From assembly GCF_003991155.1 (NCBI RefSeq), contig NZ_CP031297.1: DNA of 64,000 nt; one strand, written 5' to 3'. How positions within the stretch are numbered: the stretch's first letter is position 1; the number at the start of each line of letters is the position of its first letter. This DNA comes from Escherichia coli (GTDB lineage Bacteria; Pseudomonadota; Gammaproteobacteria; Enterobacterales; Enterobacteriaceae). The notes under the pieces are model-generated. The model saw only the letters and a program-made list of their open reading frames with translations. It did not search any database and was not told the DNA's origin. A program made the translations under genes and the position numbers. Below, one piece after another: positions 18,252 to 58,591 of the stretch.

Positions 18252-18281
18252 AAGTGCCCAAAATGGGCCGTAACAGCACTG
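18252..18281 (+). promoter_or_regulatory. Motif B (GTGCCC-AAAAT-GGGC ... TAACAGCA), copy 2
   Basis: About 45 bp downstream of palindrome copy 2. Confidence 0.4.
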
Positions 18282-18920: not shown

Positions 18921-18952
18921 GGAAGTGCCCGAAAAGGGCGCGAAGCCGTGGC
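18921..18952 (+). promoter_or_regulatory. Motif B (GTGCCC-GAAAA-GGGC), copy 3
   Basis: 10 bp after terminator, 60 bp before next operon. Confidence 0.4.
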
Positions 18953-35845: not shown

Positions 35846-35960
35846 GCAGACCCTAACGAATTTGCACGGGCATTTTAGATTATGCCCCAAAAGGGCCACT
35901 ACACGTACAGGTGGCCCTTGTCTTCTCAGATAGCATGGGAAGGTTGAAATGGAGAACACA

Positions 35961-39777: not shown

Positions 39778-40419
39778 TTATGCTGCTTTTGTTTTCTCGG
39801 CTTCGTCTGCGATTTCCTTGTCGCCGGTTGCAGATTCCGGAGCGGCTTCGGCCACTTCACCTTCTTTGCCTTTGCTGTGGGCGGAAATGCGAGCCCGTTT
39901 CTCGATGCCGATGATTCGACCGGCCAGCTTGATGAGGCGTTGCTGCCATTGGTAAGTGGCGTCGGTGCGCTGCTTGCTGGTCAGTACGGTGTTCAGCCAG
40001 AGAGTGTCAACGATCCCCATCAGGGTATCCAGTTTGCGGATCAGGTGTGCAAACTGAGCAACCTGAGGAGAGTTGATCTCGATGGTGTATTCATTCGGGT
40101 TGGTGTAGCCGGGCATCATGTCGATGCCGTTGTCTTCCATCAGCTTGTTGAGCTGGGCGGTAGCTTTGTCCAGGTCTTCGGAGACCTTGGAAATGTGTTC
40201 CAGGATGACGGTTTCAACCTGGTCGATTTCGTCCTGCTCACCGATGATGCGAAGGATCACGTCGATGGAGAACAGGGAGTTGGAAACTCGCTCAAAGCTG
40301 CGTTCCATGACGCGCTGAGCTTGGAGGCTGTTTACTTTCAGAACTTGCTTGAAAACAGGGCGAGAGTAGTGGTTGCTGCGGTCGTTGTTTGTGTCCAGTG
40401 CTACTTGTGCTTCTGCCAT
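39778..40419 (-). CDS. Hypothetical protein with Lys/Glu-rich C-terminus
   Basis: ATG at 40419 with AGGAG SD (residue 21 of ORF 39778..40479). Confidence 0.75.
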   Translation of the reverse strand: MAEAQVALDTNNDRSNHYSRPVFKQVLKVNSLQAQRVMERSFERVSNSLFSIDVILRIIGEQDEIDQVETVILEHISKVSEDLDKATAQLNKLMEDNGIDMMPGYTNPNEYTIEINSPQVAQFAHLIRKLDTLMGIVDTLWLNTVLTSKQRTDATYQWQQRLIKLAGRIIGIEKRARISAHSKGKEGEVAEAAPESATGDKEIADEAEKTKAA

Positions 40420-40497: not shown

Positions 40498-40530
40498 GAA
40501 GTGCCCAAAATGGACAGTTACAGCGTTTTC
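40498..40530 (+). promoter_or_regulatory. Motif B (GTGCCC-AAAAT-GGAC ... TTACAGCG), copy 6
   Basis: Divergent intergenic region before the array. Confidence 0.4.
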
Positions 40531-40565: not shown

Positions 40566-40616
40566 AGTCGCTCTGCGGCTATAGGTGAGATAGCTGGTCT
40601 CCGAAAACAAACAGCA
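40566..40616 (+). promoter_or_regulatory. Conserved leader element C, copy 1 (hairpin GAGA-TAGCTGG-TCTC + CGAAAACAAACAGCA)
   Basis: Seven related copies, each before a gene block. Confidence 0.45.
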
Positions 40617-40713
40617 TCTAGTCTTATGCCGTATGGCATTACTTAACCCCAAGCCGGGGGCTTCTCCCGGTTTTCGGGTGTTGCCCCTGTTTTTTTTACA
40701 TAGGAGCAACACC

Positions 40714-41034
40714 ATGCACATCATCACTTTCATTGTAGTTCTGCTTGCATCTCTGGGCGCACTGTACGTAGGCGCGAAGGCATTTGCTTTTTCCTTCATC
40801 GTTCTCGCTAAAGTGTTCCAGCGTATCGGTTTGTTCCTTTGGAACAAATTCGCAGTTCCTGCAATGCGGTCTGTACAGGCCGTCATCAAAGAACGTGCTG
40901 CCAAGGCTGAACAAGCCAAAGCAGTCGTTGAACCTGAGGTAACTCAAGTTCAAGAAGTCGCTAAACAAGAACCTGACTGGGATTATCTCGAAATCCCGAC
41001 TTACCTTCGTAAGGGCAAGGAACTTGTTTGGTAA
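40714..41034 (+). CDS. Small membrane protein carrying an FtsZ C-terminal-peptide-like tail (EPDWDYLEIPTYLRK)
   Basis: ATG at 40714 with AGGAG SD; N-terminal hydrophobic 35 aa; C-terminus matches the FtsZ conserved C-terminal peptide (E. coli ...EPDYLDIPAFLRKQAD, from memory). Confidence 0.75.
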   Translation: MHIITFIVVLLASLGALYVGAKAFAFSFIVLAKVFQRIGLFLWNKFAVPAMRSVQAVIKERAAKAEQAKAVVEPEVTQVQEVAKQEPDWDYLEIPTYLRKGKELVW

Positions 41035-41073
41035 TAACTGTCGCTGAGTAATCTTCGACACTTTCAAACCCAT

Positions 41074-41113
41074 CGGGGCAACCATACCCCGACGGGGATG
41101 TTGCCCCTTTTTG
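41074..41113 (+). terminator. Terminator-like hairpin (GGGGCAAC ... GTTGCCCC + TTTTT)
   Basis: GC stem + T-run after gene 40714..41034. Confidence 0.45.
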
Positions 41114-41523: not shown

Positions 41524-41600
41524 GGGAGTAGCCTCCAGGAGAGGCTACTCTCCTCGCTCCTTAAAAGTCTTCTTACTCATGGTGAATACCATCAGTAAGC

Positions 41601-41660
41601 AGATTTTGTTCTCTTCGGAGAGCGAAAAGTGCGATAGCTGGTCGCCAAAAACAAACAGCA
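41601..41660 (+). promoter_or_regulatory. Leader element C, copy 2 (hairpin CTCTTCGGAGAG, hairpin GCGA-TAGCTGG-TCGC, CAAAAACAAACAGCA)
   Basis: Part of a 121-bp block identical to 46436..46556. Confidence 0.5.
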
Positions 41661-41742
41661 AATTAACGTTAATTTACTAGCCCAACCGGGCGCATCCGCC
41701 CGGTTCGGGACGTGGTGCGCCTGTCACAATAGGAGCGCACCT

Positions 41743-42711
41743 ATGTCTCAATACTCTCAATTCTCAGTAAGCAAGGTTTTCGGTATGCCCAGCATTCCGG
41801 AGAAGGTAACGGCCATCGGCTACGCTGACGGTTCAAACCCTTTCATCCCTGCCACTGATACCAACTACGTTTTCCGCAAAGAGTTTCTGCGAGAGGTCTT
41901 GGCCTATCTCAAAGAGCCTGGCGGTGACGCATTGTTCGTAACCGGCCCTACCGGGTCTGGCAAAACCTCAGGTATCACCGAGATCGCTGGTCGTCTCAAC
42001 TGGCCTGTTCAGCAAATCACTGCCCACGGGCGGATGGAGCTGACAGATCTGATTGGACATCACGCTCTGGTCGCGGAAAAGCCTGGTCAACCACCTGTCA
42101 TGAAGTTCATGTATGGACCTCTGGCAGTCGCTATGCGTGAAGGTCATCTGCTCCTCATCAACGAGGTGGATTTGGCCGACCCTGCCGAGCTGGCTGGTCT
42201 CAACGATGTCCTTGAAGGGCGTCCCCTTGTGATCGCTCAGAATGGCGGGGAAATCATCAAGCCGCACCCGATGTTTCGTGTGGTCGTTACTGGTAACTCT
42301 ACGGGGTCCGGTGATGCTTCTGGTTTGTACCAGGGGGTGATGATGCAGAACCTCGCAGCTATGGATCGCTATCGTTTCACCAAAGTAGGGTATGCGGATG
42401 AGGAAGCTGAACTCAGCATTCTTGGCCGTGCTACTCCGAAACTTCCGGAAAATGTGCGGAAGGGAATGGTTCGGATTGCTAATCAGGTCCGCAAACTGTT
42501 TCTTGGCGAAAACGGTGAAGATGGTCAGATCAGCGTCACCATGTCCACTCGGACGTTGGTGCGTTGGGCGAAACTGTCTCTAGCGTTCCGTGGTGCCCCA
42601 AATGCTCTTGAATACGCCTTGGATCAAGCTCTGCTTATCCGTGCGGCCAAAGAGGAGCGTGAAGCCATCCTGCGTGTTGCGAAGGATGTGTTCGGGGACC
42701 AATGGCGCTAA
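41743..42711 (+). CDS. AAA+ ATPase, MoxR/CobS-like
   Basis: Walker A GPTGSGKTS; Walker B LLLINEVD; 322 aa. Confidence 0.85.
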   Translation: MSQYSQFSVSKVFGMPSIPEKVTAIGYADGSNPFIPATDTNYVFRKEFLREVLAYLKEPGGDALFVTGPTGSGKTSGITEIAGRLNWPVQQITAHGRMELTDLIGHHALVAEKPGQPPVMKFMYGPLAVAMREGHLLLINEVDLADPAELAGLNDVLEGRPLVIAQNGGEIIKPHPMFRVVVTGNSTGSGDASGLYQGVMMQNLAAMDRYRFTKVGYADEEAELSILGRATPKLPENVRKGMVRIANQVRKLFLGENGEDGQISVTMSTRTLVRWAKLSLAFRGAPNALEYALDQALLIRAAKEEREAILRVAKDVFGDQWR

Positions 42712-42721
42712 GAGGTGACGC

Positions 42722-43630
42722 ATGAAGAAAAATGACTGTTTGTGCCGTCGTTACACTGCTAAAGAGTGGGGCAATGACGAAACCACAATAGAAGTCTTCA
42801 TTGGCTACAAGTTGCTCCGGGAGCCCAGCTCCTCGGAGCCAGGCCAATTCACGATGGTCGAGCTACGCCGAACCGTCACTGATGGGAAAGCTGAAAATTG
42901 GTCTGAGACAAAGCTCGAAGGACCTTTTGAAGCTAACGGCCCAGACACGATCCCAATGTCCTACAAGGACAAAGAAAGCCAGTATGTGTCACAGTTTCTC
43001 AGCCAGGGGTACACCTTTCTGGATGAGGTGCTGGTAAACGCAGAGACACAGACGGTGCTGGAAGGGGGGAATGTTTCAGCCGGACAAACAGCCAGCTTGG
43101 GATCTCTCAACTGGCTGTTATCTCCGCCCTCTGAGTTACCTCCAGGTGACATAAACCTCTTCAAAGGTTTTGTTGCTGGGGTTTTTGCCAAAGGAGCCGG
43201 TTTAATCGGCTTTGAGGTTGCTCGGAGCGAAGGCTCAAATGACTTGCTACCCAGTGTGCTGATGCGTACTGACAGCGGTTATGAGCTTGGGGTTAGCACT
43301 GGACTAGGCGAAAACACTATCCATCCAGCTACGCTGGAAGGCGCTGGTGAACTCCGCCCGGAACATGGTCACAAACCCCTGCTGATGTTGGTTTACCTGC
43401 AACAGCGTTTCGCGGATGACTTTTCAAACGTAGAGAAGCCGCTGGTGGCATTCTGTGATGAACAGGGTGATACCTTCGACTACGAGCGTTTTGATTCACT
43501 AAAACCCCTCATTGAACGGTTTGGTTTCAGCTACGACGAAGTAAGAGCAGATGCAGAAAGGCTTGGCCTTGTATCTGAGCTGATTCGCCTGGCAGAGATC
43601 GACGCCGAACAAGAGGATCACTTTTTTTAA
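42722..43630 (+). CDS. Hypothetical protein
   Basis: AGAGGTGA SD; 302 aa. Confidence 0.8.
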   Translation: MKKNDCLCRRYTAKEWGNDETTIEVFIGYKLLREPSSSEPGQFTMVELRRTVTDGKAENWSETKLEGPFEANGPDTIPMSYKDKESQYVSQFLSQGYTFLDEVLVNAETQTVLEGGNVSAGQTASLGSLNWLLSPPSELPPGDINLFKGFVAGVFAKGAGLIGFEVARSEGSNDLLPSVLMRTDSGYELGVSTGLGENTIHPATLEGAGELRPEHGHKPLLMLVYLQQRFADDFSNVEKPLVAFCDEQGDTFDYERFDSLKPLIERFGFSYDEVRADAERLGLVSELIRLAEIDAEQEDHFF

Positions 43631-43675: not shown

Positions 43676-43693
43676 AATAACTTGGAGGTCATG

Positions 43694-44221
43694 ATGTCTA
43701 AAGGCGTCAACAAAGTAATTCTGGTCGGTAATCTCGGTTCTGACCCGGAAATTCGCTACATGCCAAGCGGCACTGCCGTTGCCAACTTCAACGTTGCAAC
43801 AACGGATACGTGGCGCGATAAGCAGTCTGGCGAGCAAAGAGAGCATACTGAGTGGCACCGTATTGTGCTTAAAGGTCGTTTGGCGGAAGTCGCTGGTGAG
43901 TACCTGAAAAAGGGCTCCCAAGTCTATCTCGAAGGGAGCAACCGCACCCGGAAGTGGACTGACAGCCAACAAATCGAGCGCTACACCACCGAAGTACACT
44001 GCGTTGAAATGCAGATGCTTGGTGGTCGTGGAAATGCACCTCAGGACAACTCTCAACGTGCAGCGCCCCAAAAAGGGCAACGTACAGGAGCCGGTACGCA
44101 ATCTGCTCCTGTGCAGCAATCAGCACCGCAAGGTGGTATGGGCGGAGGCTATGGTCCCGCTCCTGATGGCTGGGATGATGACATCCCGTTCATGCGGCTG
44201 CACCACTTGGCTGGCGGGTAA
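43694..44221 (+). CDS. ssb: Single-stranded DNA-binding protein
   Basis: OB-fold N-terminus, Gly/Gln-rich linker, acidic tail DDDIPF. Confidence 0.95.
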
Positions 44222-44238
44222 CACCGCCAACTCTTACT

Positions 44239-44284
44239 AAACCCCACGGGGGCACTCATGCCCCGAGGGGGTCATGGTGTCCTC
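44239..44284 (+). repeat. Intercistronic GC-hairpin element, example 2 (CATGGTGT pairs with ACACCATG at the recT start)
   Basis: Upstream segment is complementary to the SD/start region. Confidence 0.6.
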
Positions 44285-44315: not shown

Positions 44316-45305
44316 ATGTCTGATAACAAATCTCTTGTAACCCGTATCGCAAGCCGGTTTGGCGTGGACACCCGAAAGTTCTATGAAACTTTGAAGGCGA
44401 CCGCATTCAAGCAGCGAGATGGAAGTGCCCCGACCGATGAGCAGATGATGACGCTCCTGATCGTGGCTGAACAGTACGGTTTGAACCCTTTCACTCGGGA
44501 AATCTATGCGTTTCCTGACAAGCAAAATGGGATCATTCCGGTAGTAGGTGTTGATGGTTGGAGCCGCATCATCAACGAGCATCCCCAGTATGATGGCGTC
44601 GAGTTCGTGTATTCGGACAAGATGGTCAGAATGCAGGGGGCGAAAGTTGACTGCCCTGAGTGGATTGAATGCGTGATTTACCGTAAGGACAGATCTCGCC
44701 CTATCCGCATCAAGGAGTTCATTGATGAGGTGTACCGTGAACCGTTTCAGGGTCAAGGTCGCAATGGTGCTTACACTGTTGATGGCCCCTGGCAAACGCA
44801 CACCAAGCGTCAACTCCGGCACAAGTCGCTGATCCAGTGTTCTCGTGTCGCATTTGGTTTCTCTGGTATTTATGACCAGGATGAAGCTGAACGCATCCGT
44901 GAAATGGAGCAGGCATCGGCCATTAACCCGGCTATTGCCAATCTCCCTTCACCATCTCAAGTTCAAAGCCAAGAGCCTTTGGCTATTGAGCACAAAGAGC
45001 TTGACCCGATCCTAACCAAACTCGCAAATCGCGCCATTGCTGAAAACGCATGGTCTGCGGCGCATGAGTATGTGAAGGGACGGTATGAAGGTTCGGAACT
45101 GCAATATGCGACTCAATTCCTTCGTGACAAGGAGATGGATCAAATGGAGCCTCCGAAACCTGACTACCAGGAAGCGCACGAGCAAGAGTCCGCCGCTGGT
45201 GGTTCTGCAAATGCTGAACCTGGTGCCGAAGAAATGCCGCCTTTGAGTGACGAGGACATGATCCCTGTTACAGAAGAGGAGGGCGCGGAAGGCAGTTACT
45301 ACTAA
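44316..45305 (+). CDS. recT: RecT/Red-beta-like single-strand annealing protein (tentative family assignment)
   Basis: ATG at 44316 with GGAGA SD; followed by YqaJ-type exonuclease; acidic C-terminus. Confidence 0.7.
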   Translation: MSDNKSLVTRIASRFGVDTRKFYETLKATAFKQRDGSAPTDEQMMTLLIVAEQYGLNPFTREIYAFPDKQNGIIPVVGVDGWSRIINEHPQYDGVEFVYSDKMVRMQGAKVDCPEWIECVIYRKDRSRPIRIKEFIDEVYREPFQGQGRNGAYTVDGPWQTHTKRQLRHKSLIQCSRVAFGFSGIYDQDEAERIREMEQASAINPAIANLPSPSQVQSQEPLAIEHKELDPILTKLANRAIAENAWSAAHEYVKGRYEGSELQYATQFLRDKEMDQMEPPKPDYQEAHEQESAAGGSANAEPGAEEMPPLSDEDMIPVTEEEGAEGSYY

Positions 45306-45346
45306 CCCCAACGGGGGGGACTCCCCCGCTGGGGGAGATCTCCCTC
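45303..45346 (+). repeat. Intercistronic GC-hairpin element, example 3
   Basis: CGGGGGG-act-CCCCCG hairpin then GGAGATCTCC palindrome. Confidence 0.6.
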
Positions 45347-45367
45347 CTAACCATTGGAGAGAGGTCC

Positions 45368-46378
45368 ATGAAAATAGTCAACCTATCGCAACGCGAGGAA
45401 GATTGGCTTGATTGGCGGCGTCAAGGTGTAACAGCCACTGACGCCGCTATCCTGCTCAATCGGTCTCCGTACAAAACACGATGGAGACTGTGGGCCGAGA
45501 AGACTGGGTATGCGCGTGAAGTCGATCTGAGTCTTAATCCGCTGGTTCGCCGGGGGATAGAAAACGAAGATGCTGCAAGACGCGCTTTCGAGGAGAAGTA
45601 TGATGACATGCTGCTCCCCGCCTGTGTCGAATCGGTTCAATACCCGCTCATGAGGGCCTCCCTGGATGGCCTGAGAGATAACGGGGAGCCCGTCGAGCTG
45701 AAAAGCCCGAGTGCGACTGTCTGGGAAGATGTTTGTGCTGAGAAAGCAAACAGCAAGGCATACCAGCTTTATTACCCGCAGGTGCAACACCAGCTCCTGG
45801 TAACGGGGGCCAAGCAAGGCTGGTTAGTCTTCTACTTTGAAGGTCAGATTCAGGAGTTTCCAATACTCCGAGACGAAGCCATGATTCAAGAAATCTTGGC
45901 CGAGGCTAAAAAGTTCTGGCAACAGGTAGTAGACAAGAAGGAGCCCGACAAAGATCCAGAGAGAGACCTGTACATACCGCAAGGTGAAGAGGTCAACCGT
46001 TGGATTGCTGCTGCTGAGGAATACCGCCTCTATGATGCAGAGATTCAGGAGCTGAAACAGCGACTGTCTGAGCTTCAAGAAAGGCAAAAGCCTCATCTCG
46101 ACACCATGAAGTCCCTCATGGGGGAATACTTCCATGCCGACTACTGCGGTGTGATGGTAACGAGATACAAAGCGGCTGGCCGGGTAGACTACAAAAAGCT
46201 GTTGGCTGATAAGGCGTCAGGCGTGAAGCCTGAGGATGTTGACCAGTACAGAGAGAAGTCATCAGAGCGGTGCCGTGTAACGGTTACTGGCTCTGTGAAG
46301 CCACGGTACATTGTTGATGAGGACGTGCTTGCTCCTCTTGATGATTTGCCGGAAGAAGTAGAGACGTTCTACTGGTGA
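45368..46378 (+). CDS. YqaJ-like recombination exonuclease
   Basis: N-terminal TATDAAILLNRSPYKTRWRLW pattern; 336 aa. Confidence 0.8.
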   Translation: MKIVNLSQREEDWLDWRRQGVTATDAAILLNRSPYKTRWRLWAEKTGYAREVDLSLNPLVRRGIENEDAARRAFEEKYDDMLLPACVESVQYPLMRASLDGLRDNGEPVELKSPSATVWEDVCAEKANSKAYQLYYPQVQHQLLVTGAKQGWLVFYFEGQIQEFPILRDEAMIQEILAEAKKFWQQVVDKKEPDKDPERDLYIPQGEEVNRWIAAAEEYRLYDAEIQELKQRLSELQERQKPHLDTMKSLMGEYFHADYCGVMVTRYKAAGRVDYKKLLADKASGVKPEDVDQYREKSSERCRVTVTGSVKPRYIVDEDVLAPLDDLPEEVETFYW

Positions 46379-46435
46379 GTGGGGGATTTTCCCCCGCTTT
46401 CCCTTGGGGATTCTGGGAGTCTCCAACGGAAAGCA

Positions 46436-46495
46436 AGATTTTGTTCTCTTCGGAGAGCGAAAAGTGCGATAGCTGGTCGCCAAAAACAAACAGCA
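46436..46495 (+). promoter_or_regulatory. Leader element C, copy 3 (identical to copy 2)
   Basis: 121-bp identity with 41601..41721. Confidence 0.5.
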
Positions 46496-46577
46496 AATTA
46501 ACGTTAATTTACTAGCCCAACCGGGCGCATCCGCCCGGTTCGGGACGTGGTGCGCCCCCAACTTTTTGGAGTGCATC

Positions 46578-47855
46578 ATGACTAAAGTGAACCATCTACA
46601 AAGCCTCTGTGTTATCCACGTAGACTTTGACATCTGGAGTGGACAAACCCGTTTGTCTGCATCTGATCTCAAGCTGGGCGAGGGTGGTGAAATTCCACCT
46701 GAGAAAGTAGCTCAACTGGGAAGTAAGAAGATCTGTGATCCGGCTAAGCTGAAAGGCTTTCATCGCCTGAAAACAGAAACTCGTCGCCTCCTGCTGAAAT
46801 TCGGTATGCCGTTCATGAACGGATTTGCCGTACCCGTCAGCAAGACCGATGAAATCTGTAACAAGCTGAATGACATCAACTTTCAGTTTAACCAACTGAA
46901 ACAGGATTTCATCAAAGGTTACAACAAAGCCGTGGATGAATGGTGTCAGGAGAACCCTGAGTATGAACGAGCTATCCGTGCCGGAGCCCTTCCAAAGGAA
47001 ACGGTCGAGGAGCGGATTGGCTTTGAGTACCAGGTGTTCATGATCCAGCCTGTGAACGAAGATGAGGCCAACGCCAAACGCCTTAACCGCAAGGTTGAGC
47101 GCCTGGGTGACGATCTCATCTCCGAAGTGGTTCAGGAAGCGAATAAGTTCTATATGGAACGTTTGGCCGGTCGAGACCAATGTGCGGTCACTACTCGGCA
47201 GACACTCCGTAACATCCGCGACAAGGTGGATGGGCTTAGCTTCCTGAACAGCGCTTTTAACCCTCTGGTCAAGCTGCTCGACCAAACCCTCCGGGGATAC
47301 GAGCAACATGCCGATGGCCGAAACATCGTTGCGCCTTTCTTTTATCAGGTCGTGGCCGCAGTGCTGATCATGAGCGAGAGGGACCGCATCGAGCAGTATG
47401 CCAATGGCTCGATTACTGTAGAGGGCATGGCTAATGACATTGGCGGTTCGGGAGCCCAGATGGGGGACCGTTCTAAAGATGAAAAGGCCGAACAGAAAAG
47501 CGATAAAGCCGGTGAGCTTATCCCTGCAACAGAGGGTGGCGAAACCAAGCAGCAACAGGTAGGTGGTACTGAATCTGTTCAATCAGAACAGACTAACAGC
47601 GGTGGTAACTCTGTTGACCTGGATGAAGACATCGACAACTTCTTCAAGAGTTTTGCAGAACGAGGCGAGGGTGAATCGGAAGATGAATCCAATGCCGGTG
47701 ATGTGGTTCGAGAAGAGCGTGTTGATGTTGAGGATGAGCTGGTTTTGCCTGAGGAAACTCCGGTAGAGCAAGAGCCTGTCCAAGAGGAGACGACAGAGGA
47801 GCCTCTCAACCAGGAGCTGCCTAAAACTGACGACGATGGCGACTATTTCTTCTAA
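46578..47855 (+). CDS. Hypothetical protein with acidic C-terminal tail
   Basis: ATG at 46578 with GGAG SD; 425 aa. Confidence 0.8.
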   Translation: MTKVNHLQSLCVIHVDFDIWSGQTRLSASDLKLGEGGEIPPEKVAQLGSKKICDPAKLKGFHRLKTETRRLLLKFGMPFMNGFAVPVSKTDEICNKLNDINFQFNQLKQDFIKGYNKAVDEWCQENPEYERAIRAGALPKETVEERIGFEYQVFMIQPVNEDEANAKRLNRKVERLGDDLISEVVQEANKFYMERLAGRDQCAVTTRQTLRNIRDKVDGLSFLNSAFNPLVKLLDQTLRGYEQHADGRNIVAPFFYQVVAAVLIMSERDRIEQYANGSITVEGMANDIGGSGAQMGDRSKDEKAEQKSDKAGELIPATEGGETKQQQVGGTESVQSEQTNSGGNSVDLDEDIDNFFKSFAERGEGESEDESNAGDVVREERVDVEDELVLPEETPVEQEPVQEETTEEPLNQELPKTDDDGDYFF

Positions 47856-47939: not shown

Positions 47940-49736
47940 ATGTCCAAAAAACGCACCATTTACAGCGCTCTACCAATCGTGGCCGCAGCCTATGGTGAAA
48001 AACTCGGTGTCAAAGTCGCCATCGGTAACGATGACGCATACACCGATGGTAAGACCATCGTGGTTCCGAATATCCCCGACGACTATCCTCACATGGATGC
48101 TGTCTGGGGGTATTTGGCCCATGAAGCAGCCCATGTCCGGTTTACGGACTTTGGTGTTGAGCGCCGCAGAGGTCTTCATGCTGAGTTGTCCAACGTTTTG
48201 GAGGACTGCCGCATAGAACGGGCCATGATGGAACTCTTCCCCGGTACGTCGCAGACCCTGAATGAGGTTGCTCGCTATATGGCTCAAGCTGGTCATTACG
48301 AGCACGTCACAGACAAAGAGGCCCCTGCCTCCATTCTGACAGGGTTTTGTTTGTACTGGTTGCAAACCAAGGCTGTAGGGCAATCCGTCCTTCAACCCTA
48401 TCTCGATTCGGCTACCCCCGTATTCGAGCGCGTGTTCCCTCAGGGTGTTGTTGTTCGGCTGAACGCTTTACTGCGTAAGGCTGTGAACACTAAGTCAACC
48501 GCAGAGGTGACATCCTTGGCCGACCAAATCATCAAGATGATCGAGGAGGAAAAGGAGAAAGAAGAGCAAAAGCCCCAGAATGGTCAGGATGGTAACAACC
48601 AGCAGAATGCTGGTGGCAACCAACCTCAGAACAGTCAGGGCGGAAGTGGTAACGATCAAAACCAAGGGCCTGATGCCAATGGTGGTGATCAGCAAGGTAA
48701 AGACCAGAAGCAAGACGATGCTAACGGGAAATCTGATCCGAAAGGACAGGGCGACCAAGGCAAGTCGGATACTGATGGTGGCAGCAAGGCAGGACAAAGC
48801 CAGGCTGGTGGCAATTCTGACGCGGCGAAACAAGACGCGGCCAAAATGCTCCAGCAGGTTCTGAATGCCGGTGCCGGTGATTTGCGTGGTGACGCGCATG
48901 ATGCACTTAAAGCCGAGCTCAACCGGGTGGCTCAAGATAAGGGGGACAGTAGCTATATGACTGTTCGCTCTGCTGTGAACACCCAGGACAACCCTGCTGT
49001 TGGCAAAAGCCTGGTAGGGGATGTGAAGAGCACCACTTCAAAGATAAGAACGCAGCTCTACGGATTGGTCCAGGCCAGCCAGCGAGTTGCTCACCGTAAC
49101 CAACGATCAGGGAAGCGTGTGGATGCTCGGAAACTACATCGTGTAGTGACGGGTGATACCCGCGTATTCCTCAAGCCAGAAGCCAAGAAACGCCCTAATA
49201 CGGCGGTTCACATCCTGGTTGATATGAGCTCCTCGATGGCCTACAAGGCCGCCAATGGAAAGGAGCGTCAAGACATTGCGCGGGAAGCGTCCTTGGCTAT
49301 TTCGATGGCTCTGGAAGCAATACCCGGCGTAAACCCGGCAGTCACCTTTTTTGGTGGCAACCGGAACCAGCCAGTGTTCAGTGTCGTGAAGCATGGAGAT
49401 ACGGTTCAGAATCGGGCCGGTCGGTTTGGGTTCAAAGCAACTGGCGGTACGCCTATGGCGGAAGCTATGTGGTATGCAGCTTTTGAACTCACCAAGACCC
49501 GTGAAGAGCGAAAAATGTTGATCGTAGTGACTGACGGGCAGCCTCAAAGAGCCCCGGCATGTCGCTCAGTGATTGACCTCTGTGAACGAAGCGATGTTGA
49601 GGTGATCGGCATAGGGGTAGAGACTACCGCAGTGTCAGGACTGTTCCAAAAGAACATTGTCATTGATGATGCGGCAGCTCTGCAACGCACACTGTTTAAG
49701 TTGATGGAGCGGTCATTGACTGCTTTTGCAGCTTAA
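47940..49736 (+). CDS. VWA-domain protein, CobT-like architecture (N-domain, Gln/Gly/Asp-rich linker, C-terminal VWA)
   Basis: MIDAS motif VDMSSSM, then GGTPM and VTDGQP. Confidence 0.85.
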   Translation: MSKKRTIYSALPIVAAAYGEKLGVKVAIGNDDAYTDGKTIVVPNIPDDYPHMDAVWGYLAHEAAHVRFTDFGVERRRGLHAELSNVLEDCRIERAMMELFPGTSQTLNEVARYMAQAGHYEHVTDKEAPASILTGFCLYWLQTKAVGQSVLQPYLDSATPVFERVFPQGVVVRLNALLRKAVNTKSTAEVTSLADQIIKMIEEEKEKEEQKPQNGQDGNNQQNAGGNQPQNSQGGSGNDQNQGPDANGGDQQGKDQKQDDANGKSDPKGQGDQGKSDTDGGSKAGQSQAGGNSDAAKQDAAKMLQQVLNAGAGDLRGDAHDALKAELNRVAQDKGDSSYMTVRSAVNTQDNPAVGKSLVGDVKSTTSKIRTQLYGLVQASQRVAHRNQRSGKRVDARKLHRVVTGDTRVFLKPEAKKRPNTAVHILVDMSSSMAYKAANGKERQDIAREASLAISMALEAIPGVNPAVTFFGGNRNQPVFSVVKHGDTVQNRAGRFGFKATGGTPMAEAMWYAAFELTKTREERKMLIVVTDGQPQRAPACRSVIDLCERSDVEVIGIGVETTAVSGLFQKNIVIDDAAALQRTLFKLMERSLTAFAA

Positions 49737-50178: not shown

Positions 50179-50267
50179 TGTTCACACAGCTCTCGTGGAA
50201 CAATCAAAGTGAGGAGGGAATACCCTCCCACTTTCTCAGAGGCCTTCATTGAGGGTTGCTGAGAAAG

Positions 50268-50327
50268 TGAATTTTGTCCTCTCTGAGGGCGAAACGTGCG
50301 ATAGCTGGTCGCCAAAAACAAACAGCA
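50268..50327 (+). promoter_or_regulatory. Leader element C, copy 4
   Basis: CCTCTCTGAGGG hairpin, GCGATAGCTGGTCGC hairpin, CAAAAACAAACAGCA. Confidence 0.5.
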
Positions 50328-50397
50328 TTCAACCTCAGCCTAAGGGCGCACTGCGCCTGACAGGCTCTGTGTGCCCAAGTTACTTTAAGGAGCACAC

Positions 50398-53227: not shown

Positions 53228-53669
53228 CCGATACACGGCCAGGGAGTCTGACAAAAGTCGGATACTTCGGACCATAGGCTGGTGCAAGCGCAACCACCTT
53301 ACACTTGCCGGTCTTCCATACGAGGACAATCTTGCAGGAAGTGATGGGATCAGCATAGAGATCATCACTCCTCCTGGTATGTCGCGGGAAATGTTGGAGC
53401 AAGCCGTCAGAGAGGGGTATTCAGAGCGAGATGTCGTAAGGCATCGCATTCTGGAGTGCCCTGTCGGTTGGTTCATGGAAGCTGATGGCAAGGCATTTGA
53501 TCATGAAGTGTTCCACGATTACGTGGTGGCTCATGGTTATGGCGAACCTTCCAGCGAAGCCTATGAGCTGGCGGAGCGGTGGTTCTGGCAGGGCAACGAT
53601 TATGCGTTGATAGCTGCGGAAATAGTTGCTCGTGATCTTTGTGTTCGTGATGACGAAGATGAGGACTGA
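53217..53669 (+). CDS. Hypothetical acidic protein
   Basis: ATG at 53217 with GGAGG SD; C-terminal DDEDED. Confidence 0.7.
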   Translation: MQLNRYTARESDKSRILRTIGWCKRNHLTLAGLPYEDNLAGSDGISIEIITPPGMSREMLEQAVREGYSERDVVRHRILECPVGWFMEADGKAFDHEVFHDYVVAHGYGEPSSEAYELAERWFWQGNDYALIAAEIVARDLCVRDDEDED

Positions 53670-53673
53670 TCCT

Positions 53674-53949
53674 ATGGATGCTGTAGCGCATATAGCAGCA
53701 GATAACCTTGTACCGGCATGTGGAGGTGCAGAGAAGCCGTTTACCGTTAGTGGTAGACAGTGGCTTTACTGCTATCACCCAGCCAGTGGGAGGCACTGCT
53801 ACTTAGACCTCGATAATGACCGTCCAGTCTGGCATCGAGGATTTCATCCTGCTTTTCATCCTGAGCTTGAGTTCGCTGATGAAGCTGAGTTGCTTCGACC
53901 AGTTGAGCGAAAGCCTGACCATGAAGAGCTGGAGGATTTTTACTTTTAA
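53674..53949 (+). CDS. Small hypothetical protein
   Basis: ATG at 53674 with GAGGA SD. Confidence 0.6.
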   Translation: MDAVAHIAADNLVPACGGAEKPFTVSGRQWLYCYHPASGRHCYLDLDNDRPVWHRGFHPAFHPELEFADEAELLRPVERKPDHEELEDFYF

Positions 53950-54661: not shown

Positions 54662-54681
54662 TTTGTGCCCCTCGGAAAGCA

Positions 54682-54741
54682 AGATTTTGCTCTCTGTCGA
54701 GAGTGAATAGTGAGGTAGCTGGCCTCCCCAAACAAACAGCA
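54682..54741 (+). promoter_or_regulatory. Leader element C, copy 5 (stems CTCTC/GAGAG and GAGG/CCTC)
   Basis: Stem sequences differ from other copies while base pairing is kept. Confidence 0.5.
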
Positions 54742-54811
54742 TTCTACATAACCCTTGGGGGATCACTGCCCCTCGGGCTGGTGGTTCCCTGACAAACATG
54801 GAGCCACAACT

Positions 54812-58454: not shown

Positions 58455-58523
58455 TTCCCAGGGTGCTTCGGAAAGTGCCTTAGGCGCTCAAGTGCGGTAG
58501 CTGGCTGCCAAAAACAAACAGCA
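58455..58523 (+). promoter_or_regulatory. Leader element C, copy 6
   Basis: GCGGTAGCTGGCTGCCAAAAACAAACAGCA. Confidence 0.45.
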
Positions 58524-58591
58524 AATTATCAACCCTGACGGGAGCACCTCCTGTTAGGGGGGCTCCGTCATAAACTGAACGGAGATATAGC

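What the first reader, a model, noticed from the sequence alone, without database searches (positions are those of the whole stretch)
44316..46378. RecT/YqaJ-type recombination pair next to ssb
A single-strand annealing protein and an exonuclease with the YqaJ N-terminal pattern follow ssb in the same block. Together they form a recombineering-type module that could repair or circularise incoming single-stranded DNA, or promote recombination between related elements. The RecT assignment is tentative; the YqaJ motif is clearer.
Basis: partly seen in the sequence, partly recalled or inferred. Interest (0 to 1): 0.45.

Follow-up and report, generated by a model that had tools for sequence, protein, structure and literature searches.

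The report
IncC plasmid Bet/Exo break-repair pair
This is the known ssb-bet-exo recombination module of IncC multidrug-resistance plasmids, which repairs plasmid DNA cut by the new host's CRISPR or restriction enzymes; it is real, but it has already been characterised experimentally.

Summary
Coordinates 44316-45305 and 45368-46378 are exactly the RefSeq-annotated bet and lambda-exonuclease-family genes, directly downstream of ssb (43691-44221). The window is IncC conjugative plasmid backbone, and this stretch is 100% identical to more than 700 deposited plasmids.

The 'tentative RecT' is a strong call. Its N-terminal domain matches lambda Redβ (PDB 7UJL, E 2.8e-57) and it passes NCBI's bet_lambda equivalog cut-off. 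More precisely it is a Bet/Redβ-type annealase, not a Rac RecT. Exo has the lambda-Exo fold and an invariant D100/E110/K112 catalytic triad.

Exo is 336/336 identical, and Bet 322/329 identical, to Vcrx093 and Vcrx092 of pVCR94. Roy et al. 2020 showed that ssb-bet-exo of that plasmid rescues CRISPR-cut plasmids in the recipient, by RecA-independent single-strand annealing between short intergenic repeats. Novelty: already known.

One thing may be new. Exo, Bet, Vcrx090, the DUF3150 protein and an unannotated 99-aa ORF all end in an acidic stretch plus an aromatic pair. This tail is family-wide in DUF3150 (106 of 138 representatives) and in Exo homologues (97 of 110). It appears to co-vary within loci and travels with a CobS-like AAA+/CobT-like VWA pair. 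That suggests a shared docking receptor, which I could not test.

The parts
40503..40515 (.). AcaCD-box-like palindrome (GCCCAAAATGGAC, 12 of 13 positions matching GCCCNDWWWGGGC). It lies in the divergent region between acaB (39778-40419, minus strand) and vcrx087 and is the likely activator site for the operon's promoter.
   Evidence: Motif search, (29 matches in the window against 5.9 expected). The motif and the acaB-vcrx087 divergent AcaCD-dependent promoters are named in PMC8373056. RT-PCR in pVCR94 places the operon start at Pvcrx087.
40714..41034 (+). vcrx087 homologue (106 aa), first gene of the transcript
   Evidence: RefSeq annotation mapped from L001; sequence; operon data.
41592..41721 (+). 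Structured intergenic repeat (rptI-type) immediately upstream of vcrx089. Positions 41601-41721 are 100% identical to 46436-46556.
   Evidence: the repeat finder families D1, D2, D3 and D7. Roy et al. describe the rptI repeats as the single-strand annealing substrates, and an RBS-sequestering structure at vcrx089.
41743..42711 (+). vcrx089: CobS/CbbQ-like MoxR-type AAA+ ATPase (AAA_5 + CbbQ_C). Together with vcrx090 it gives anti-type-I-restriction activity.
   Evidence: Pfam; 320/322 identical to pVCR94; function.
42722..43630 (+). vcrx090: 302-aa protein with no known domain, ending in the tail ..EQEDHFF
   Evidence: No Pfam, NCBIfam or PHROG hit; tail.
43691..44221 (+). ssb (vcrx091). The canonical DDDIPF tip is followed by a 9-aa extension, MRLHHLAGG.
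   Evidence: Pfam SSB 6.8e-37; annotation; 172/176 identical to pVCR94; the extension defines a clade.
44316..45305 (+). bet (vcrx092), a lambda Redβ-type single-strand annealing protein. It has an annealing domain (aa 1-196), a disordered linker (200-223), a three-helix bundle (230-276) and a disordered acidic tail (282-329) ending in SYY.
   Evidence: alignment A2; 322/329 identical to pVCR94.
45368..46378 (+). exo (vcrx093), a lambda-Exo/YqaJ-family 5'-3' exonuclease. It has a PD-(D/E)XK core (aa 1-190; D100, E110, K112) and a conserved C-terminal extension: a long helix (207-251), a small beta domain (256-306) and the tail ..EEVETFYW.
   Evidence: 336/336 identical to pVCR94 Vcrx093.
46427..46556 (+). 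Second copy of the structured intergenic repeat, between exo and vcrx094. Its last hairpin pairs with the vcrx094 RBS.
   Evidence: The RNA fold of 46379-46590 is -95 kcal/mol, z = -6.85.
46578..47855 (+). vcrx094: DUF3150 protein, ending in the tail ..DDDGDYFF
   Evidence: Pfam DUF3150 4.4e-91; family-wide tail.
47940..49736 (+). vcrx095: CobT-like VWA protein, with no such tail
   Evidence: Pfam VWA/CobT; PHROG CobT-like.
50259..50332 (+). Further rptI-type repeat copy, a potential annealing partner
   Evidence: families D1 and D2. Additional copies lie at 40583-40621, 54673-54746 and 58490-58528.
53650..53949 (+). Conserved 99-aa ORF, unannotated in RefSeq, carrying the same acidic-aromatic tail (..EELEDFYF)
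   Evidence: The stretch is an annotation gap in NZ_CP027679. tblastn gives 93% identity in pVCR94 and 58% in the Eoetvoesiella element L002.

Best explanation
The two genes are bet (vcrx092) and exo (vcrx093) of the IncC plasmid 'host defence evasion' operon. They are transcribed with ssb (vcrx091) and the anti-restriction genes vcrx089-090, from the AcaCD-activated promoter upstream of vcrx087.

The mechanism is as follows. After the plasmid enters a new cell, the recipient's CRISPR-Cas or restriction enzymes may cut it. Exo, a lambda-Exo-type PD-(D/E)XK exonuclease, resects the 5' strands of the broken ends. Ssb coats the resulting 3' overhangs. Bet, a Redβ-type annealase, pairs complementary copies of short direct repeats scattered through the intergenic regions of this block. 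Host functions then trim and ligate. The plasmid recircularises without RecA and loses one repeat copy and everything between the repeats, including the targeted site.

What is shown here by computation: the family, the fold, the catalytic residues, identity to the tested proteins, and the presence of the repeats. What is shown in the literature for the same proteins: the genetic requirement, action in the recipient, RecA independence and the deletion scars. What is inferred by analogy with lambda Red and SXT-Exo/Bet biochemistry: the order of the biochemical steps and the Exo trimer.
For: Identity of the element: the region is 100% identical to 715 IncC plasmids. Exo is 336/336, Bet 322/329 and Ssb 172/176 identical to pVCR94.

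Family assignment: Pfam RecT and YqaJ, and NCBIfam bet_lambda and lambda-exonuclease, all score above their curated cut-offs. The Bet N-terminal domain matches lambda Redβ 7UJL at E 2.8e-57 by sequence, 3.5e-77 by profile and 1.7e-15 by Foldseek. The Exo model (pLDDT 89) matches lambda Exo at 2.4e-11 and LHK-Exo at 1.9e-10 by Foldseek. The profile search gives LHK-Exo 6.4e-13 and lambda Exo 1.7e-8, aligning SLDG..PVELK to lambda's SPDG..GLELK. D100, E110 and K112 are invariant in 31 homologues.

Repair substrates: six copies of an intergenic repeat are present.

Experiments in the literature: Tn-seq, deletions, complementation in the recipient only, RecA independence and sequenced scars between rptI-IV repeats (PMC7498323). 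Deleting vcrx093 sensitises the IncC plasmid pKAZ3 to several restriction-modification systems (PMC11602122). The SXT homologues, which are 48% and 61% identical, have 5'-3' processive exonuclease activity, form a trimer and support recombineering (PMC3118119).
Against: Nothing in the sequence contradicts this explanation. Several limits remain. No biochemistry exists for the IncC proteins themselves. Roy et al. found Ssb to be helpful but not essential. The role of the conserved C-terminal extension of Exo, the three-helix domain of Bet and the acidic-aromatic tails is unexplained by the lambda Red analogy. I could not match my repeat copies one-to-one to the published rptIa-f names. The AcaCD box at 40503 has one mismatch to the published motif.
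Confidence: 0.93

Rival explanations
1. The pair's primary function is to generate diversity by recombining co-resident related elements, producing hybrid plasmids or ICEs, rather than to repair breaks.
For: SXT/R391 bet and exo promote RecA-independent hybrid ICE formation (PMC2786100, abstract; discussed).
Against: [quoted passage not shown] Complementation worked only in the recipient. Roy et al. argue that diversity is a by-product of repair.
Confidence: 0.1
2. The pair works on the incoming single strand, circularising or establishing it.
For: The genes sit next to ssb and are controlled by the transfer activator.
Against: Deleting ssb-exo had no effect on transfer of an untargeted pVCR94. 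In conjugation the relaxase recircularises the transferred strand (established knowledge). Lambda-Exo-type enzymes prefer 5'-phosphorylated double-stranded ends.
Confidence: 0.03
3. Bet and Exo are not a free-standing Red-like pair. They are clients of a larger machine built around the CobS-like AAA+ ATPase (vcrx089) and the CobT-like VWA protein (vcrx095). They would be recruited through a shared C-terminal acidic-aromatic tail that Vcrx090, the DUF3150 protein and a 99-aa ORF also carry. This reading is compatible with the best explanation and extends it.
For: Only 5 of 278 six-frame ORFs in the window have the tail, and four of them are consecutive genes in this operon. The tail is present in 97 of 110 Exo homologues, 49 of 115 Bet homologues and 106 of 138 DUF3150 representatives, against about 2% expected by chance. 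It is conserved in syntenic loci at 50-68% identity, while the AAA+ and VWA proteins never carry it. The core AAA+ - hypothetical - DUF3150 - VWA module exists without bet and exo, so ssb-bet-exo looks like a cassette inserted into it. Tails appear to co-vary within a locus: WFF on three proteins in L011, Y-L variants in L004, and FYF/YYF in the SXT type. In true CobST, CobT acts as an adaptor between the motor and a client (bioRxiv 10.64898/2026.07.21.739949, abstract).
Against: No binding was tested and no complex model could be run. Tn-seq flagged only vcrx089-093, not vcrx094-095. Roy et al. complemented the Δ(ssb-exo) plasmid, which still carried vcrx089-090 and vcrx094-095, with ssb-bet-exo in the recipient, so that test does not settle whether those genes are needed. 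Deleting vcrx089-090 acts on restriction even where ssb-exo is dispensable. SXT-type Bet lacks the tail. The tail could instead mimic the SSB C-terminal tip and bind host SSB partners, or it could be a degradation tag.
Confidence: 0.3

Closest known systems
pVCR94 (IncC) hde operon: vcrx091 ssb, vcrx092 bet, vcrx093 exo (Roy, Huguet, Grenier and Burrus 2020, NAR, PMC7498323)
   Same: It is the same genes. Exo is 100%, Bet 97.9% and Ssb 97.7% identical. The gene order vcrx087 to vcrx095 is the same and the same intergenic repeats are present.
   Different: There are only a few substitutions: seven in Bet and four in Ssb. Vcrx090 and Vcrx094 are more variable.
SXT/R391 ICE S064-S065-S066 (Ssb, SXT-Bet, SXT-Exo; Chen et al. 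2011, PMC3118119; Garriss et al. 2009, PMC2786100)
   Same: These are orthologous families with Exo 48% and Bet 61% identical. They include the Exo C-terminal extension and its aromatic tail (..SFYF), and they have the same associated AAA+/DUF3150/VWA genes.
   Different: In the SXT-type locus examined, the gene order is Bet-Exo-AAA+-hypothetical-DUF3150-x-VWA. SXT-type Bet is 272 aa and lacks the acidic-aromatic tail. According to Roy et al., the rptI and rptIII repeats are not shared.
Bacteriophage lambda Red (Redβ, lambda Exo, Gam)
   Same: It has the same two protein families and the same RecA-independent single-strand annealing logic. The Bet N-terminal domain aligns closely over about 180 residues to the lambda Redβ structure 7UJL (E 2.8e-57; about 52% identity in the Foldseek alignment). 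Exo shares the lambda Exo fold and catalytic triad.
   Different: There is no Gam; an ssb gene is present instead. Exo is 336 aa against 226 aa, with a roughly 140-aa C-terminal extension. The Bet C-terminal region gave no sequence or fold match to the solved Redβ C-terminal domain. Both proteins carry acidic-aromatic tails. Expression is controlled by a conjugation activator.
Rac prophage RecET
   Same: It is a functional analogue, a two-component annealase-plus-exonuclease recombinase of the SynExo type. RecT shares the Pfam RecT family.
   Different: The NCBIfam RecT model was not hit and the best family is Bet. RecE is only a weak fold match (3h4r, E 3.3e-3, rank 26).

Membership tests
Lambda Red-type two-component recombinase (Bet/Redβ annealase + lambda-Exo/YqaJ exonuclease) | A single-strand annealing protein with the Redβ/RecT N-terminal annealing domain | tested here: met
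   PF03837 scores 98.6 bits (cut-off 24). TIGR01913 bet_lambda, an equivalog model, scores 88.6 (cut-off 76.95). 7UJL matches at E 2.8e-57 by sequence and 1.7e-15 by Foldseek with target TM-score 0.73.
Lambda Red-type two-component recombinase (Bet/Redβ annealase + lambda-Exo/YqaJ exonuclease) | An exonuclease with the lambda-Exo PD-(D/E)XK fold and the D...E-x-K catalytic residues | tested here: met
   PF09588 scores 92.6 bits and TIGR03033 scores 133.8 bits. Foldseek matches lambda Exo at 2.4e-11 and LHK-Exo at 1.9e-10. The profile alignment places D100, E110 and K112 on lambda's SPDG..ELK motif. These residues are invariant in 31 homologues.
Lambda Red-type two-component recombinase (Bet/Redβ annealase + lambda-Exo/YqaJ exonuclease) | The two genes are adjacent, co-oriented and co-transcribed | tested here: met
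   The genes are separated by a 62-nt gap on the same strand, each with its own RBS, and no terminator-like site lies on the + strand between them. Co-transcription was shown by RT-PCR in pVCR94.
Lambda Red-type two-component recombinase (Bet/Redβ annealase + lambda-Exo/YqaJ exonuclease) | 5'-3' dsDNA exonuclease activity, ssDNA annealing activity and RecA-independent recombination | not testable with these tools
   The literature provides genetics for the identical Exo and the 98%-identical Bet, and biochemistry for the SXT homologues.
Lambda Red-type two-component recombinase (Bet/Redβ annealase + lambda-Exo/YqaJ exonuclease) | A Gam-type inhibitor of host nucleases. This belongs to the lambda module but is not required for the SynExo class. 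| tested here: not met
   None of the neighbouring ORFs hits a Gam family. Roy et al. state that IncC and SXT lack gam and carry ssb instead.
IncC / SXT-R391 hde operon (vcrx089-093) | Orthology with the experimentally tested pVCR94 genes, and the same gene order | tested here: met
   Protein identities are 96-100% and DNA identity is 97.7% over 9.7 kb. The gene order matches.
IncC / SXT-R391 hde operon (vcrx089-093) | An AcaCD-responsive promoter upstream of vcrx087 | tested here: inconclusive
   A 12-of-13 match to GCCCNDWWWGGGC lies at 40503-40515, in the acaB-vcrx087 divergent region. Binding was not tested here.
IncC / SXT-R391 hde operon (vcrx089-093) | Dispersed intergenic direct repeats (rptI type) that serve as annealing substrates | tested here: met
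   Six copies sharing a 39-nt core are present, including a 121-nt pair that is 100% identical. I did not resolve how they correspond to the published rptIa-f names.
   Only bet_lambda was hit in NCBIfam at E <= 0.01. The best PHROG is 'Bet-like' at 4e-75. Listeria phage RecT 7UB2 matches at only E 1.2e-3, against 1.7e-15 for Redβ. RecE 3h4r is a weak fold match. The Pfam family named 'RecT' covers both branches.

The most novel reading that the evidence does not exclude
Bet and Exo of IncC-type elements carry the same C-terminal docking peptide as Vcrx090, the DUF3150 protein and a small unannotated protein. The peptide is an acidic stretch ending in an aromatic pair. The motif is family-wide in DUF3150 and appears to co-vary within loci. 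It is always accompanied by a CobS-like AAA+ ATPase and a CobT-like VWA adaptor, which lack it. The most novel reading is that the ssb-bet-exo cassette was inserted into, and is physically wired to, an uncharacterised AAA+/VWA remodelling machine of plasmids, or alternatively to an SSB-tail-binding hub. Under that reading the repair and anti-restriction functions of the hde operon are parts of one tail-organised complex.
Probability: 0.3. Interest if true: 0.6.

Novelty: already known. Interest (0 to 1): 0.15.

Why it matters
IncC plasmids are major carriers of multidrug resistance, and this module is one reason they cross host-defence barriers. It also undermines CRISPR-based 'plasmid-curing' strategies, because cut plasmids are repaired with loss of the target. 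That significance is already established in the literature, so the finding adds no new biology. The shared C-terminal tail, which I could not find described in the papers searched, would matter if it proves to be a docking motif. It would link the recombination pair to the unexplained AAA+/DUF3150/VWA genes found on many plasmids and ICEs, and it would offer a simple handle (tail truncation) for dissecting the whole operon.

Tried and rejected
1. A plain sequence search of Exo against the PDB found nothing meaningful. A profile search and a fold search were needed.

2. I looked for a match of the Bet C-terminal three-helix domain to the solved Redβ C-terminal domain (6M9K). Neither the profile search nor Foldseek on the full-length model found one. 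Homology of the C-terminal domains therefore remains open.

3. I tried to identify the Exo C-terminal extension. Pfam at E <= 10 gave only noise and no PDB fold match appeared for it. PHROG 434 shows that phage exonucleases share the extension to about residue 306.

4. An Rfam search of 40-60 kb found no known RNA family for the structured intergenic repeats.

5. The promoter and terminator consensus scans were uninformative, at or below shuffled expectation.

6. I tried to map my repeat copies onto the published rptIa-f names using the published deletion sizes. The spacings fit only approximately, so I dropped this.

7. Protein translocation from the donor as the role of the tails is unlikely, because donor-side expression did not complement.

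8. A beta-clamp-binding motif was considered for the tails and rejected, because they lack the Q-L-x-L-F pattern. This rests on my own knowledge.

9. The accession KF551948 was not in the collection. NC_023291 was used instead.
Full report
**1. The observation**

The window carries two adjacent + strand ORFs, 44274/44316-45305 and 45368-46378, directly after an SSB gene. A 2.9-kb query spanning them is 100% identical to 715 plasmids in PLSDB. Nearly all are conjugative and typed IncC / MOBH / MPF_F, from Klebsiella, Escherichia, Salmonella, Vibrio and others. RefSeq annotation of one identical plasmid gives these genes:
- ssb at window 43691-44221
- bet at 44316-45305
- a lambda-exonuclease family gene at 45368-46378

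The 44316 ATG has a GGAG 8 nt upstream, whereas the upstream in-frame ATG at 44274 sits inside a GC-rich hairpin with no RBS. The exo ATG also has a GGAG upstream.

**2. Family assignment**

Bet evidence:
- Pfam RecT scores 98.6 bits (cut-off 24).
- NCBIfam TIGR01913 'phage recombination protein Bet', an equivalog model, scores 88.6 bits (cut-off 76.95). The NCBIfam RecT model was not hit.
- PHROGs ranks 'Bet-like' first (4e-75).
- Plain phmmer against the PDB finds the lambda Redβ N-terminal domain 7UJL at E 2.8e-57. A profile of 29 homologues raises this to 3.5e-77.
- An AlphaFold model built on that alignment matches 7UJL at Foldseek E 1.7e-15. Listeria phage RecT matches only at 1.2e-3, and Rad52 is weaker still.

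The protein belongs to the lambda Bet/Redβ branch of the superfamily.

Exo evidence:
- Pfam YqaJ scores 92.6 bits and TIGR03033 scores 133.8 bits.
- Plain sequence search against the PDB fails.
- A 31-sequence profile reaches LHK-Exo (6.4e-13) and lambda Exo (1.7e-8). It aligns SLDG...PVELK with lambda's SPDG...GLELK.
- D100, E110 and K112 are invariant across homologues down to 50% identity.
- The AlphaFold model (mean pLDDT 89) matches lambda Exo (2.4e-11) and LHK-Exo (1.9e-10) over the first ~200 residues.

**3. What it is**

pVCR94ΔX (NC_023291) is the IncC model plasmid used by the Burrus laboratory. Compared with it, the window's Exo is 336/336, Bet 322/329, Ssb 172/176 and Vcrx089 320/322 identical. 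The DNA is 97.7% identical over 9.7 kb. The genes are therefore vcrx091 (ssb), vcrx092 (bet) and vcrx093 (exo) of the 'host defence evasion' (hde) operon.

Roy et al. 2020 (PMC7498323) established the following:
- They found the five genes vcrx089-093 by Tn-seq.
- RT-PCR showed co-transcription from Pvcrx087.
- vcrx089-090 protect against a type I restriction system.
- Deleting ssb, bet or exo reduces transfer of a CRISPR-targeted plasmid 6- to more than 200-fold. The same deletions leave transfer of an untargeted plasmid unchanged.
- Complementation works only in the recipient.
- Rescue is RecA-independent.
- Rescued plasmids carry deletions whose ends lie in short direct repeats (rptI-IV), some with as little as 7 bp of identity.

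Dimitriu et al. 2024 (PMC11602122) showed that deleting vcrx093 also sensitises the IncC plasmid pKAZ3 to several E. coli restriction systems. The SXT homologues are 48% (Exo) and 61% (Bet) identical to the window's proteins. They have been purified: SXT-Exo is a trimeric, processive 5'-3' alkaline exonuclease stimulated by Bet and Ssb, and the pair supports recombineering (PMC3118119).

**4. How it works**

After conjugative entry, the operon is expressed de novo. A likely activator site is the 12-of-13 match to the AcaCD motif at 40503-40515, in the divergent acaB-vcrx087 region named as AcaCD-dependent in PMC8373056. If host nucleases break the plasmid, the steps are:
- Exo resects the 5' ends.
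- Ssb covers the 3' tails.
- Bet anneals complementary repeat copies.
- Host enzymes finish the job.

The plasmid recircularises minus the interval between the repeats.

The substrates are visible in the window. Six copies of an intergenic repeat lie at about 40583, 41592-41721, 46427-46556, 50259, 54673 and 58490. The biochemical order of events is inferred from lambda Red and SXT. The genetics is shown for the same proteins.

**5. Anatomy beyond the lambda paradigm**

Exo is 336 aa, against 226 aa for lambda Exo. The extra C-terminal region is conserved: P193, K195, D200, P204, W212, M251, G261, T265, G271, R301 and R303 are invariant. It is predicted with good confidence as a 45-residue helix plus a small beta domain. 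It has no Pfam or PDB match, but phage exonucleases of phrog_434 share it.

Bet has four parts: the annealing domain (aa 1-196), a disordered linker, a confidently predicted three-helix bundle (230-276) and a disordered acidic tail. I could not link the bundle to the solved Redβ C-terminal domain.

**6. An unexpected regularity**

Four consecutive proteins of the operon end in an acidic stretch followed by an aromatic pair at the very C-terminus:
- Vcrx090: ..EQEDHFF
- Bet: ..EGAEGSYY
- Exo: ..EEVETFYW
- Vcrx094 (DUF3150): ..DDDGDYFF

Only five of 278 six-frame ORFs in the 64-kb window have such an end. The fifth is a 99-aa ORF at 53650-53949 (..EELEDFYF). RefSeq does not annotate it, yet it is 93% conserved in pVCR94 and 58% in a betaproteobacterial element.

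How widespread the tail is, against about 2% expected by chance:

| Protein set | With tail |
|---|---|
| Exo homologues | 97 of 110 |
| Bet homologues | 49 of 115 |
| DUF3150 representatives, down to ~30% identity | 106 of 138 |
| SSB homologues | 0 of 120 |

Further observations:
- Syntenic loci show the tail on the same four proteins. These are Eoetvoesiella, Comamonas, Pseudomonas luteola, Pseudoalteromonas and an SXT-type Vibrio element. The AAA+ and VWA proteins never carry it.
- Distant DUF3150 loci keep the core AAA+ - (hypothetical) - DUF3150 - CobT/VWA module without bet and exo. The ssb-bet-exo cassette therefore looks like an insertion into that module.
- Tails look coordinated within a locus, by inspection of 11 loci: three proteins ending WFF in L011, Y-L variants in L004, and FYF/YYF in the SXT type.

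This suggests a common receptor. From my own knowledge, the design recalls two precedents: the SSB C-terminal tip (DDDIPF), and the interchangeable acidic tails ending in phenylalanine on T7 gp2.5 and gp4. The CobS/CobT analogy, a motor plus an adaptor that docks a client, makes the AAA+/VWA pair a candidate receptor.

None of this is tested. Tn-seq did not flag vcrx094-095. The published recipient-side complementation used a Δ(ssb-exo) plasmid that kept those genes, so it does not decide the question. I found no description of the tails, and only one irrelevant mention of DUF3150, in the literature held.

**7. Verdict**

The finding is real, correctly located and correctly interpreted in outline. 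It is already known and experimentally characterised, so I score it low for interest. The annealase should be called Bet/Redβ-type. The function is repair of defence-inflicted double-strand breaks in the recipient, not handling of incoming single-stranded DNA. The shared C-terminal tail is the only item here that might be new; it is recorded as the novel case and under things noticed in passing.

Noticed in passing
window 42722-43630, 44316-45305, 45368-46378, 46578-47855 and 53650-53949; loci L002-L005 and L008-L013: Five proteins of this block end in an acidic stretch plus an aromatic pair at the C-terminus (HFF, SYY, FYW, YFF, FYF). The motif is family-wide in DUF3150 (106 of 138) and in Exo homologues (97 of 110). 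It is conserved on the same proteins in divergent syntenic loci and looks coordinated within loci. It is absent from the accompanying AAA+ and VWA proteins.
   Followed up: partly
window 43691-44221 (ssb C-terminus): The plasmid SSB has the canonical DDDIPF tip followed by a conserved 9-aa extension, MRLHHLAGG. Related elements carry the same extension (MRLH[HP]L[AE]GG, or ARLHYMAGG in Comamonas). Of the 120 best SSB hits, 24 carry some extension after the IPF tip. From my own knowledge, the tip normally needs its free terminal carboxylate to bind partner proteins, so this SSB may be masked or retargeted.
   Followed up: partly
window 53650-53949 (+): A 99-aa ORF lies in an annotation gap of RefSeq IncC records, and pVCR94 annotates a different frame there. 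It is conserved at 93% in pVCR94 and 58% in a betaproteobacterial element. It ends in the same tail, ..EELEDFYF.
   Followed up: partly
window 41601-41721 and 46436-46556; related copies at 40583, 50259, 54673 and 58490: A 121-nt perfectly identical direct repeat brackets the vcrx089-exo cassette with 4835-bp spacing. Annealing between these two copies would delete the repair genes themselves. The element is strongly structured as RNA (-95 kcal/mol, z = -6.85) and its last hairpin pairs with the RBS of the downstream gene. It has no Rfam family.
   Followed up: partly
loci L011, L012 and L013 (distant DUF3150 loci): A conserved four-gene core occurs on other plasmids and islands without bet, exo or ssb, often followed by a Toprim primase. 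The core is a CobS-like AAA+ gene, a small hypothetical gene, a DUF3150 gene and a CobT-like VWA gene. The recombination cassette therefore appears to be an insertion into this uncharacterised module.
   Followed up: partly
window 45935-46378 (Exo residues 190-336): This is a conserved C-terminal extension of about 140 aa, predicted as a long helix plus a small beta domain. It has no Pfam or PDB match, phage exonucleases of phrog_434 share it, and its function is unknown.
   Followed up: partly
window-wide, for example 849-861, 18256-18268, 18927-18939 and 35884-35896: Matches to the AcaCD-box motif GCCCNDWWWGGGC are strongly enriched (29 with up to one mismatch, against 5.9 expected). This is consistent with the window covering much of the AcaCD-regulated transfer region of an IncC plasmid.
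   Followed up: no
window 44240-44270, 45305-45345, 41063-41098 and others (repeat families D4 and D6): Short GC-rich hairpins of the form CCCCACGGGGG...CCCCGAGGGG recur in the gaps between cistrons of the operon. They may stabilise the mRNA or act as processing sites.
   Followed up: no
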